Part shown: positions 10,285 to 10,328 of the stretch, piece after piece
How positions within the stretch are numbered: position 1 is the stretch's first letter
Layout: every line of letters starts with the position of its first letter
DNA from: Propionibacteriaceae bacterium
GTDB lineage: Bacteria > Actinomycetota > Actinomycetes > Propionibacteriales > Propionibacteriaceae
Direction of reading: 5' to 3'
DNA length: 32,000 nucleotides
Assembly: GCA_031256725.1 (NCBI GenBank)
Contig: JAIRQE010000006.1
Location: forward strand, 150,601-182,600
The notes under the pieces: model-generated
Told to the model about the DNA's origin: nothing
The model's input: only the letters and a program-made list of their open reading frames with translations
The model's database searches: none
Translations under genes and position numbers: made by a program

Positions 10285-10328
10285 CTCTCTCTCTCTCTCT
10301 CTCTCTCTCTCTCTCTCTCTCTCTCTCT
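10285..10328. repeat. (CT)22 dinucleotide microsatellite
   Basis: Read directly: 22 uninterrupted CT units. It ends 45 nt upstream of the ATG at 10374 and is immediately followed by tagctt (TAnnnT, -10-like). A complementary AGAGAG lies at 10343-10348. Confidence 0.98.

What the first reader, a model, noticed from the sequence alone, without database searches (positions are those of the whole stretch)
10285..10328. (CT)22 microsatellite immediately upstream of the defence-like operon: candidate phase-variation switch or H-DNA element
Seen in sequence: 22 uninterrupted CT units end 45 nt before the ATG of the PLD-SNF2 gene. They abut a TAnnnT-type hexamer (tagctt, 10329-10334) and are followed 14 nt later by a complementary AGAGAG (10343-10348). 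Established knowledge: long perfect dinucleotide tracts are rare in bacterial genomes and prone to slipped-strand mispairing. Promoter-located repeats, such as the TA tract between hifA and hifB in Haemophilus, and repeats in Type I/III R-M genes produce phase-variable expression (phasevarions). Polypurine/polypyrimidine mirror repeats can form triplex H-DNA. Inference: tract length may set on/off or graded expression of the nuclease/MTase operon, and possibly of the divergent epimerase gene 212 bp away. It could act by moving the upstream TTGACA-containing repeats relative to the -10 region, or through the structure of a (CU)n leader.
Basis: partly seen in the sequence, partly recalled or inferred. 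Interest (0 to 1): 0.7.

Follow-up and report, generated by a model that had tools for sequence, protein, structure and literature searches.

The report
CT repeat inside leader ORF of defence operon
A perfect run of 22 CT dinucleotides sits inside a tiny, well-signalled upstream reading frame that ends on the start codon of a restriction-modification-like phage-defence operon, so slippage of the repeat probably switches the defence system between expression states, but repeat-length variation itself could not be checked.

Summary
(CT)22 lies at 10285-10328, 45 nt before the ATG of an HKD/PLD-SNF2 nuclease-helicase gene, which is followed by an overlapping Eco57I/MmeI-type N6-adenine methyltransferase gene. 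An independent assembly of the same sample breaks inside the tract on both sides, so the tract is present in the reads.

Its promoter-spacing mechanism fails on arithmetic: TTGACA lies 88 nt from TAGCTT. The tract lies inside a 41/49-codon upstream ORF. That ORF has two perfect GGAGG Shine-Dalgarno sites, and its TGA overlaps the helicase ATG (ATGA). The helicase start codon sits in the 4-nt loop of an 11-bp hairpin of -17.7 kcal/mol. None of 200 shuffles, 154 homologue starts or 25 other start sites in the window folds as stably.

Repeat number modulo 3 sets where leader ribosomes stop: 32 nt before the hairpin, in its loop, or at its 3' foot. This geometry matches the Streptococcus gallolyticus pil1 leader-peptide switch.

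In 80 distant homologous loci, all 8 long repeats fall in the partner methyltransferase gene (P=1e-6), and 3 of those genes are frameshifted at the repeat.

Tract-length polymorphism, the transcription start and leader translation remain untested.

The parts
10195..10200 (+). TAGAAT, best -10-like hexamer (5/6 to TATAAT). This candidate promoter would place the leader ORF and the CT tract on the mRNA.
   Evidence: Read from the sequence. Inferred, not mapped. The consensus scan found no full -35/-10 pair on the + strand.
10198..10247 (+). Perfect tandem duplication of a 25-bp unit, AATAATTGGTAATTGACACGGAGGT. Each copy supplies a TTGACA and a GGAGG.
   Evidence: TRF and the repeat finder. Also present in the independent Logan contig.
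10217..10221 (+). Shine-Dalgarno GGAGG, 6 nt before TTG 10228.
   Evidence: Anti-SD duplex -10.9 kcal/mol, close to the strongest value computed in the window (-11.1, at the helicase's own start).
10242..10246 (+). Shine-Dalgarno GGAGG, 5 nt before ATG 10252.
   Evidence: Anti-SD duplex -10.7 kcal/mol. Initiation-region fold only -3.2 kcal/mol.
10228..10377 (+). Leader ORF of 49 codons from TTG 10228, or 41 from ATG 10252. It reads the CT tract as (Leu-Ser)n. Its TGA (10375-10377) overlaps the helicase ATG as ATGA.
   Evidence: the ORF listing. Frame simulation. An SD-led start open to the tract in this frame appears in 1.2% of dinucleotide shuffles.
10285..10328 (+). (CT)22, the putative slippage-prone switch element.
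   Evidence: Independent contigs break inside it.
10329..10331 (+). TAG directly after the tract. It stops the leader when n is a multiple of 3 (21, 24), 32 nt before the hairpin. It is also in the helicase frame, which rules out any N-terminal extension of the helicase through the tract.
   Evidence: and direct reading of the sequence.
10343..10348 (+). AGAGAG, complementary to CUCUCU. It pairs with the 5' edge of the tract in the predicted fold.
   Evidence: The helix is not more stable than shuffles (z = -0.48).
10360..10364 (+). AAGGA, the helicase gene's own SD-like element, 9 nt before the ATG. It partly overlaps the hairpin stem.
10363..10388 (+). 11-bp hairpin GACGGUGUGGC-AUGA-GCCGCAUCGUU. 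The helicase AUG and the leader UGA form its 4-nt loop.
   Evidence: dG -17.7 kcal/mol, z = -4.94, 0/200 shuffles. Twenty-five other start sites tested in the window (including the two leader-ORF starts) fold at -0.6 to -7.7. None of 154 homologue starts is as stable; their minimum is -12.5.
10388..10390 (+). TGA that stops the leader when n = 2 mod 3 (20, 23), at the 3' foot of the hairpin, 14 nt after the A of the helicase ATG.
10374..13709 (+). HKD/PLD nuclease - SNF2 ATPase gene (1111 aa), first gene of the defence operon.
   Evidence: Pfam PLDc_2, Helicase_C, ResIII. PADLOC 'HKD+Snf2' 8e-32. The N-terminus MSRIVDN is conserved in homologues, which confirms the start.
13699..16932 (+). Eco57I/MmeI-family N6-adenine DNA methyltransferase gene (1077 aa). 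It overlaps the helicase stop by 11 nt and has a weak SD of its own.
   Evidence: Pfam. PADLOC REase_MTase_IIG 2e-135. Gene call in the Logan contig. Sequence of the junction. Anti-SD duplex -4.6 kcal/mol.

Best explanation
The (CT)22 tract is a slippage-prone repeat inside a short translated leader ORF. It acts as a three-state translational switch for the two-gene defence operon.

Inferred: transcription starts upstream of 10217, with TAGAAT at 10195-10200 as the best -10 candidate. Ribosomes load at one of two perfect GGAGG sites and translate the leader through (CU)n as Leu-Ser repeats.

Shown in silico: the number of CT units modulo 3 fixes where the ribosomes stop.
- n = 1 mod 3 (the assembled 22): the stop is the UGA of an AUGA overlap with the helicase start.
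- n = 2 mod 3: the stop is 14 nt further on, at the 3' foot of the hairpin.
- n = 0 mod 3: the stop is the UAG that abuts the tract, 32 nt short of the hairpin.

Also shown in silico: the helicase AUG lies in the loop of an exceptionally stable hairpin.

Inferred: only leader ribosomes that reach the hairpin melt it and allow termination-reinitiation at the helicase AUG. The methyltransferase gene overlaps the helicase stop and has a poor SD, so it would follow by coupling. One-unit slippage would then turn the nuclease-helicase and the methylase up or down together. The population would become a mixture of defended and undefended (DNA-permissive) cells.
For: - Leader ORF 10228/10252-10377 with an ATGA overlap.
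- Its two starts have anti-SD pairing (-10.9 and -10.7 kcal/mol) close to the strongest in the window (-11.1) and unstructured initiation regions. The helicase start folds at -17.7 kcal/mol, against -0.6 to -7.7 for the other 25 start sites tested.
- Hairpin z = -4.94, with 0/200 shuffles as stable.
- None of 154 homologue starts is as stable: mean -3.2, sd 2.6.
- Stop positions for n = 16-28.
- An SD-led start open to the tract in the required frame appears in 1.2% of shuffles.
- The closest homologues have a plain AAGGAGGA SD, an open start region and no repeat, so this arrangement is a lineage-specific add-on.
- Family-level tendency to repeat-driven switching: 8 of 8 long repeats in 1.01 Mb of 80 homologous loci lie in the MTase gene, P = 1.2e-6. 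Three of these genes are frameshifted exactly at the repeat.
- Experimentally proven precedent with the same geometry: the S. gallolyticus pil1 leader peptide with (GCAGA)22, where the short leader ends 39 bp before a hairpin and out-of-frame leaders end in or after it (PMC3894217).
Against: - No tract-length polymorphism was observed. Both collection scans found nothing closer than 69% protein identity. The only other assembly cannot resolve the length.
- The transcription start is unknown. If transcription starts after 10252, the leader ORF is not on the mRNA.
- A CT tract is open in every frame, so part of the ORF comes for free, and the leader has no homologues on which to test conservation.
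- The frame assignment depends on the exact count of 22 from a metagenome assembly.
- The helicase has an SD-like AAGGA of its own.
- The arrangement was recognised post hoc.
Confidence: 0.4

Rival explanations
1. The tract is hypermutable and does modulate the operon, but through its length rather than a reading frame. It would act as part of the promoter-upstream region or as an untranslated (CU)n leader. Possible routes are the distance to the upstream 25-bp repeats, leader structure or stability, RNase processing, or S1-type binding to a pyrimidine tract. This is graded control of the kind seen at hmw1A or uspA2.
For: The tract is 45 nt from the start codon and next to duplicated TTGACA/GGAGG units. 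AGAGAG and flanking bases can pair across the tract and include the helicase SD. A transcribed pyrimidine-rich repeat that pairs with a G-rich segment controls HMW1A (PMC12721329).
Against: The cross-tract helix is no more stable than shuffles, z = -0.48, and only 6 nt of the tract pair. A true -35/-10 spacer role is arithmetically impossible at 88 nt. TAGCTT is a poor -10. This reading leaves three things unexplained: the two perfect SD-start pairs, the ATGA overlap and the start-codon hairpin.
Confidence: 0.2
2. The tract is a selectively neutral microsatellite that expanded in a non-essential spacer next to a horizontally acquired island. The leader ORF is a by-product of a stop-free CT run, and the operon is expressed independently of it.
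For: It was found in a single genome, with no counterpart in the closest homologues or in any of 160 related loci upstream of the helicase gene. The genome carries other perfect short tandem duplications in spacers, of 25 bp and 17 bp, which suggests slippage-prone replication. From general knowledge, Actinobacteria lack MutS/MutL.
Against: Dinucleotide tracts this long are almost absent from comparator DNA: one of at least 20 nt in 1.57 Mb, and that one is inside the homologous MTase gene. Neutrality does not predict the SD-led start in the one frame that ends on ATGA (1.2% of shuffles). It also does not predict the unique hairpin over the start codon.
Confidence: 0.28
3. The homopurine-homopyrimidine mirror repeat acts at the DNA level. 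It would form H-DNA/triplex under negative supercoiling between divergent genes and behave as a supercoil-sensitive barrier or regulator, possibly also affecting the epimerase gene.
For: A perfect 44-bp (CT/GA) mirror repeat is the textbook H-DNA-forming sequence (established knowledge; sequence). It lies in a 300-bp spacer between divergent genes.
Against: No tool here tests triplex formation. The likely epimerase promoter region is about 150 nt away. If the TAGAAT promoter is used, the tract lies inside the transcribed region rather than between promoters. This reading does not account for the leader ORF or the hairpin.
Confidence: 0.07
4. The tract, or the join across it, is an assembly artefact of the metagenome-assembled genome.
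For: The source is a MAG. GC content drops from about 53% to 47% at the tract. A k=31 assembly cannot cross it.
Against: Two independent contigs run into the tract from both flanks with identical flanking sequence. A 44-nt tract should be spannable by ordinary short reads. The right-hand contig continues into genes with the flanking GC level, as expected for an inserted island.
Confidence: 0.03

Closest known systems
Streptococcus gallolyticus pil1 leader-peptide phase variation, (GCAGA)n (Danne et al. 2014, PMC3894217)
   Same: A repeat lies inside a short leader ORF at the 5' end of the operon transcript. Repeat number sets the frame and so the stop position. One frame stops tens of nt before a stem-loop (39 bp there, 32 nt here), and the other frames stop within or just after it. 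A ribosome reaching the stem-loop would melt it.
   Different: The unit here is a dinucleotide, not a pentanucleotide. The stem-loop here has no U-tract and encloses the downstream start codon with an ATGA overlap, so the predicted output is translational coupling rather than anti-termination. The target is a defence operon in an environmental actinobacterial MAG, not a pilus operon of a pathogen. Nothing here is experimentally shown.
Phase-variable restriction-modification genes: Type III mod and Type I hsd repeats, including (AG)12 in Mycoplasma M.MmyCI (PMC5909438, PMC7383803, PMC3498834)
   Same: A simple repeat is attached to an R-M-type system with an N6-adenine MTase, and the expected outcome is ON/OFF heterogeneity of defence and methylation. 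Distant homologues of this very system carry G17, C15, C11, (TG)15 or (CGAC)27 inside the MTase gene.
   Different: In those cases the repeat is inside the MTase or specificity gene. Here both enzyme genes are repeat-free, and the repeat lies in a separate upstream ORF that would gate the whole operon.
Helicobacter pylori oipA/sabA/hopZ CT-dinucleotide switches (PMC10564699)
   Same: The repeat unit (CT) is the same. The tract is read as Leu-Ser, and one-unit slippage shifts the frame.
   Different: There the tract is in the 5' coding region of the regulated protein itself.
Transcribed 5'-UTR repeats: H. influenzae hmw1A (ATCTTTC)n with RNase III (PMC12721329); H. pylori tlpB G-repeat with RepG sRNA (PMC8295292)
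   Same: A variable repeat sits between the promoter and the start codon and acts after transcription. In hmw1A a pyrimidine-rich repeat pairs with a purine-rich segment.
   Different: Those repeats are untranslated and give graded, length-dependent output. Here the predicted cross-tract pairing is weak, and the frame logic predicts periodicity of three.
H. influenzae hifA/hifB (TA)n promoter-spacer switch
   Same: A dinucleotide tract lies between divergent genes.
   Different: The defining feature, a tract between -35 and -10, is not met (88 nt).
HKD-SNF2 helicase plus nested-TRD N6-MTase modules: 'Type-2 BREX-related' systems (PMC12839542), DISARM DrmD/DrmMI, Type IIG enzymes
   Same: The downstream genes share the HKD-nuclease + Swi2/Snf2 effector and an Eco57I/MmeI/PglX-like MTase.
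   Different: No DUF499 ATPase, DUF3780, DrmA/B/C or PglZ gene is adjacent. All NCBIfam hits fall far below their cut-offs. It is a bare two-gene module, as in its closest relatives.

Membership tests
SSR contingency (phase-variable) locus | A perfect simple repeat long enough to slip at high frequency | tested here: met
   (CT)22, 44 nt, 100% perfect. It is by far the longest simple repeat in the window.
SSR contingency (phase-variable) locus | The repeat is placed so that unit changes alter expression of a gene | tested here: inconclusive
   In silico, n modulo 3 moves the leader stop between -45, +1 and +14 relative to the helicase ATG. Any effect on expression is not shown.
SSR contingency (phase-variable) locus | Repeat-length polymorphism within or between populations | not testable with these tools
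   No same-species sequence in the genome or metagenome collections; best match 69% protein identity. The Logan contigs stop inside the tract.
SSR contingency (phase-variable) locus | Reversible ON/OFF or graded phenotype | not testable with these tools
   Needs reporter, proteome or methylome data.
Promoter-spacer SSR switch (hifA/B type) | The repeat lies between the -35 and -10 hexamers, so that the spacing moves around 17 nt | tested here: not met
   TTGACA 10235-10240 to TAGCTT 10329-10334 is 88 nt, and 44 nt would remain without the tract. The scan found no + strand promoter pair.
Leader-peptide SSR switch (pil1 type) | The repeat is inside a short ORF with translation signals, upstream of the operon | tested here: met
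   ORF 10228/10252-10377. GGAGG lies 6 and 5 nt before TTG and ATG, with anti-SD pairing close to the strongest in the window. Actual translation is not shown.
Leader-peptide SSR switch (pil1 type) | Frame-dependent stops: one well upstream of a stem-loop, the others within or after it | tested here: met
   Stops at 10329-31 (32 nt before the stem), 10375-77 (in the loop) and 10388-90 (at the 3' foot). Compare PMC3894217.
Leader-peptide SSR switch (pil1 type) | The stem-loop is an intrinsic transcription terminator (hairpin plus U-tract) | tested here: not met
   No U-run follows 10388. No + strand terminator-like site was found. The hairpin encloses the start codon instead.
5'-UTR repeat hairpin (hmw1A type) | The repeat region forms a long, stable hairpin with a downstream purine-rich arm | tested here: not met
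   Only 6 nt of the tract pair with AGAGAG. The cross-tract helix has z = -0.48, with 56/200 shuffles as stable.
H-DNA-forming element | A perfect homopurine-homopyrimidine mirror repeat of tens of bp | tested here: met
   44-bp (CT)n/(GA)n.
H-DNA-forming element | Triplex formation in vivo with a regulatory consequence | not testable with these tools
   Requires chemical or enzymatic probing.
Type-2 BREX-related system (PMC12839542) | A DUF499 AAA+ ATPase and a DUF3780 gene together with the HKD-SNF2 helicase and the MTase | tested here: not met
   Only the helicase and MTase genes are present. The neighbours are an epimerase, a 66-aa ORF with no family hit and a cation-efflux gene.
DISARM class 1 | DrmA, DrmB and DrmC together with DrmD and DrmMI | tested here: not met
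   DrmD and DrmMI models match only partially. The NCBIfam DrmD score is 102.6 against a cut-off of 610. No DrmA/B/C genes are in the locus.

The most novel reading that the evidence does not exclude
A dinucleotide repeat inside a leader ORF acts as a modulo-3 translational gate. Only leader ribosomes in the right frame reach and melt a hairpin that hides the start codon of the first gene. Expression then propagates by start-stop overlaps through the nuclease-helicase gene into the methylase gene. A whole restriction-modification-like defence module would therefore be phase-variable without any repeat in its enzymes. To my knowledge this would be the first leader-ORF repeat switch on a defence system and the first in an environmental actinobacterium. 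It would also show that the HKD-SNF2/MTase family has acquired repeat-based switching repeatedly, by different routes.
Probability: 0.35. Interest if true: 0.65.

Novelty: new variant of a known kind. Interest (0 to 1): 0.52.

Why it matters
Repeat-driven phase variation of restriction-modification systems is well documented in host-adapted pathogens. It is hardly documented in free-living or environmental Actinobacteria, or in helicase-nuclease defence modules.

If the model holds, it would show a compact way to make a multi-gene defence system stochastic without touching its coding sequences. That arrangement turns nuclease and methylase off together, which should limit self-restriction.

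It would extend the pil1-type leader-peptide switch from transcription attenuation to translational coupling.

Together with the survey of homologues, it suggests that bet-hedging between phage defence and DNA uptake is a recurrent feature of this system family.

It also has a practical consequence. Such tracts break short-read assemblies, so these switches are probably under-counted in metagenomes.

Tried and rejected
1. Searching for the same species elsewhere to compare tract lengths. The metagenome scan returned at best 69%. Exact-protein look-ups of the helicase, MTase, epimerase and cation-efflux genes returned only Logan contigs of SRR14710887, which end in the tract. Tract variability therefore remains unmeasured.

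2. Looking for a repeat upstream of the helicase gene in homologues. None was found in 160 loci or in four loci of the closest clade.

3. Promoter reading. The consensus scan gave no + strand promoter. TAGCTT was rejected as evidence: 3/6 match, and one of four TAnnnT hexamers in the spacer.

4. N-terminal extension of the helicase through the tract. This is excluded by the in-frame TAG at 10329.

5. A long-range RNA helix across the tract. It is not significant, and neither is the whole-leader fold at z = -0.44.

6. Known RNA families. Only a chance snoRNA hit, E = 0.38.

7. att-like repeats bounding the low-GC island. None found.

8. Solved structures for the MTase. No sequence match.

9. 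Filing the operon under DISARM or Type-2 BREX-related systems. Accessory genes are absent.

10. lex2A/lex2B of H. influenzae as a coupling precedent. The library only confirmed that lex2A carries a tetranucleotide repeat, so I do not rely on it.

Full report
**Observation.** The window contains an uninterrupted (CT)22 at 10285-10328. TRF reports 10284-10328, period 2, 22.5 copies and 100% matches.
- TAGCTT at 10329-10334;
- AGAGAG at 10343-10348;
- the ATG of a 1111-aa ORF at 10374, 45 nt after the tract;
- a divergent ORF starting at 10073 or 10064;
- a perfect 25-bp tandem duplication carrying TTGACA at 10198-10247.

The window's only other simple repeats are T8 and G9. In 1.57 Mb of comparator loci, only one other dinucleotide tract reaches 20 nt.

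**Source and reality of the tract.** The window comes from a metagenome-assembled genome labelled Propionibacteriaceae. An independent Logan assembly of run SRR14710887 gives two contigs that run into the tract from either side. Their flanks are identical to the window and each ends after about 25 nt of CT. This is the expected k=31 break at a longer repeat. The tract is therefore real in the reads, but the exact number 22 rests on one assembly.

**Genes around the tract.** The downstream ORF (10374-13709) combines an HKD/PLD nuclease domain with an SNF2-type ATPase. It matches Pfam PLDc_2, ResIII and Helicase_C, and the PADLOC model 'HKD+Snf2' at 8e-32. The next gene (13699-16932) overlaps it by 11 nt. 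It is an Eco57I/MmeI-family N6-adenine methyltransferase and matches the PADLOC Type IIG model at 2e-135. The pair has 47% GC against about 53% in the flanks.

Its closest relatives are only 62-69% identical and are largely named as Microbacteriaceae (Agromyces, Agrococcus, Cryobacterium, Microbacterium, Leifsonia). They have the same two-gene order and sit beside McrBC, GmrSD or conjugation genes. The module is therefore a mobile defence module. It lacks the extra genes that define DISARM or the recently described Type-2 BREX-related systems. The divergent gene is a GlcNAc-2-epimerase homologue that follows a sugar ABC transporter.

The tract is inside a short ORF, 10228 (TTG) or 10252 (ATG) to 10377.
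- Each of the two possible starts is preceded by a perfect GGAGG, at 10217-10221 (6 nt before TTG) and 10242-10246 (5 nt before ATG). Both are supplied by the duplicated 25-bp unit.
- These starts have anti-SD pairing of -10.9 and -10.7 kcal/mol, close to the strongest in the window (-11.1, at the helicase start), and almost no local structure.
- The ORF reads the tract as Leu-Ser repeats.
- It ends with a TGA that overlaps the helicase ATG (ATGA, 10374-10377).
- In the helicase frame a TAG follows the tract directly, so the tract cannot extend the helicase protein.

**The start-codon hairpin.** The helicase AUG, together with the leader's UGA, forms the 4-nt loop of an 11-bp hairpin at 10363-10388. 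Its free energy is -17.7 kcal/mol, with z = -4.94, and none of 200 shuffles is as stable. The same 36-nt window around 25 other start sites in this window, including the two leader-ORF starts, folds at -0.6 to -7.7 kcal/mol. Around the starts of 154 homologous helicase genes it folds at a mean of -3.2 (sd 2.6, minimum -12.5), and none reaches -17.7. The closest homologues have an ordinary AAGGAGGA site and an open start region.

**Frame logic.** Changing the repeat number in silico from 16 to 28 gives three repeating outcomes:

| n modulo 3 | examples | leader stop | position relative to the hairpin |
|---|---|---|---|
| 1 | 22 (as assembled) | UGA of the AUGA overlap | in the hairpin loop |
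| 2 | 20, 23 | UGA at 10388-10390 | at the 3' foot |
| 0 | 21, 24 | UAG at 10329-10331 | 32 nt before the hairpin |

A start with GGAGG that is open to the tract in the frame ending on ATGA arises in 1.2% of dinucleotide shuffles of the left spacer. That estimate is independent of the hairpin statistics.

**Most likely mechanism (inferred).** Slippage of the tract changes the leader frame. Only ribosomes that reach the hairpin unfold it and hand over to the helicase AUG by termination-reinitiation. The methyltransferase gene has a weak SD (-4.6 kcal/mol) and an 11-nt overlap with the helicase stop, so it follows by coupling. Nuclease and methylase would thus be switched together.

The geometry closely matches the experimentally established pil1 switch of Streptococcus gallolyticus. 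There (GCAGA)n in a leader peptide gene decides whether the stop lies 39 bp before a stem-loop (low expression) or within or after it (high expression) (PMC3894217). The difference here is that the stem-loop has no U-tract and no terminator-like signature, and it holds the start codon. Translational coupling is therefore the more natural output than anti-termination.

This model needs a promoter upstream of 10217. TAGAAT at 10195-10200 (5/6 match) is the best candidate, but no promoter can be established from sequence.

**Support from relatives.** In 80 loci encoding distant homologues (35-48% identity, many phyla), I found eight long simple repeats in 1.01 Mb. All eight lie in or at the end of the partner methyltransferase gene, which makes up 18% of the sequence (binomial P = 1.2e-6):
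- G17 in L008, gene intact;
- G17 in L065, gene frameshifted;
- (TG)15 in L009, gene frameshifted;
- (CGAC)27 in L020, in frame;
- C15 in L023, plus a C14 just after the stop;
- C11 in L024, gene frameshifted;
- C15 in L063.

The sequences were checked directly for L008, L009 and L065. Most of these loci come from records deposited as whole-chromosome or multi-megabase contigs, which I take to be long-read assemblies. The 80 metagenome loci, largely NODE/k-mer-named contigs that I take to be short-read assemblies, showed none, and such assemblies tend to break at these tracts. Homopolymer length errors could account for some of the frameshifts, but not for the presence of the tracts. This family of defence modules therefore recurrently acquires repeats, as known phase-variable Type I and Type III systems do (PMC5909438, PMC7383803, PMC3498834). 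The window differs in placing the repeat in front of the operon.

- Spacer change between TTGACA and a -10 is excluded. The distance is 88 nt, and 44 nt would remain without the tract. TAGCTT is one of four TAnnnT hexamers in the spacer.
- A structured (CU)n leader is not supported as such. The helix across the tract has z = -0.48, the whole leader has z = -0.44, and only six tract bases pair with AGAGAG.
- H-DNA is possible in principle for a 44-bp mirror repeat but cannot be tested here.
- Control of the epimerase gene has no support. Its promoter-like site lies about 150 nt away.

**What remains open.** The transcription start and leader translation are untested. The leader has no homologues. 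The frame argument depends on n = 22 being the true or dominant allele. A neutral microsatellite in a slippage-prone genome remains a serious rival, and the window also holds perfect 25-bp and 17-bp tandem duplications.

My estimates are:
- about 0.4 for the leader-frame switch;
- 0.2 for a length-dependent, non-frame effect;
- just under 0.3 for no function;
- small residues for H-DNA and for an assembly artefact.

**Novelty.** Repeat-controlled R-M systems and leader-peptide repeat switches are both known. A dinucleotide repeat in a leader ORF coupled by ATGA and a start-codon hairpin to a helicase-nuclease/methylase module, in an environmental actinobacterium, would be a new variant of a known kind.

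Noticed in passing
window 17212-17245: A second perfect short tandem duplication (17 bp x2, CCAGTAAGTTAATACAT), 22 nt upstream of the cation-efflux gene start (17268). 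It lies at the other end of the low-GC defence island. Together with the 25-bp duplication, it suggests a genome prone to slippage or duplication in 5' regions.
   Followed up: partly
window 10198-10247: The 25-bp duplication duplicates a full SD (GGAGG) and creates a second in-frame start (TTG 10228) for the leader ORF. Copy-number change of this unit could be a second variable element.
   Followed up: partly
L023 12639-12652 and 10584-10598: An Acidimicrobiales homologue carries two homopolymers in its MTase gene. C15 is internal and in frame. C14 starts two bases after the stop codon, so a 1-nt change might alter the C-terminus.
   Followed up: no
L020 2348-2455: (CGAC)27, 108 nt and in frame, inside the MTase gene of an Acidimicrobiales genome. 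It is an unusually long tetranucleotide array for a bacterial coding region.
   Followed up: no
L008 3979-3995 vs L065 3989-4005: Two related Acidimicrobiia genomes both have G17 at about the same MTase position. The gene is intact in one and split into two frames in the other. This is either ON/OFF alleles or a homopolymer length error in long-read assemblies.
   Followed up: partly
window 16992-17192: A 66-aa ORF directly after the MTase gene. It was called as a gene in the Logan contig, has no Pfam or NCBIfam hit, and is absent from the closest homologous loci. It may be an unrecognised accessory gene or nothing.
   Followed up: partly
window 3681-4609 and 16-3561: A ParD-like/zeta-toxin pair (119 and 189 aa) lies next to the 3' part of a giant Big_1/invasin-repeat protein (>2160 aa in the Logan contig), upstream of the sugar ABC transporter.
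   Followed up: no
window 26225-26233: A G9 homopolymer in the spacer between two convergent ORFs (25278-25916 + and 26317-27099 -). It is the only other repeat of note in the window.
   Followed up: no
L164-L166 (Agromyces and JGI/Logan relatives): In the closest clade the two-gene module is followed directly by McrB/McrC genes and preceded by conjugation genes (TrwC, TrbL). The module therefore travels on integrative or conjugative elements.
   Followed up: no
window 10269-10283 vs 10349-10363: The tract is flanked by an imperfect inverted repeat, CCTGAGTGTGGCTGA / TCTGCAACACTAAGG (12 of 15 complementary). It would pair the leader coding region with the helicase SD. It is not significant by shuffling, but it fits a coupling design.
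   Followed up: partly
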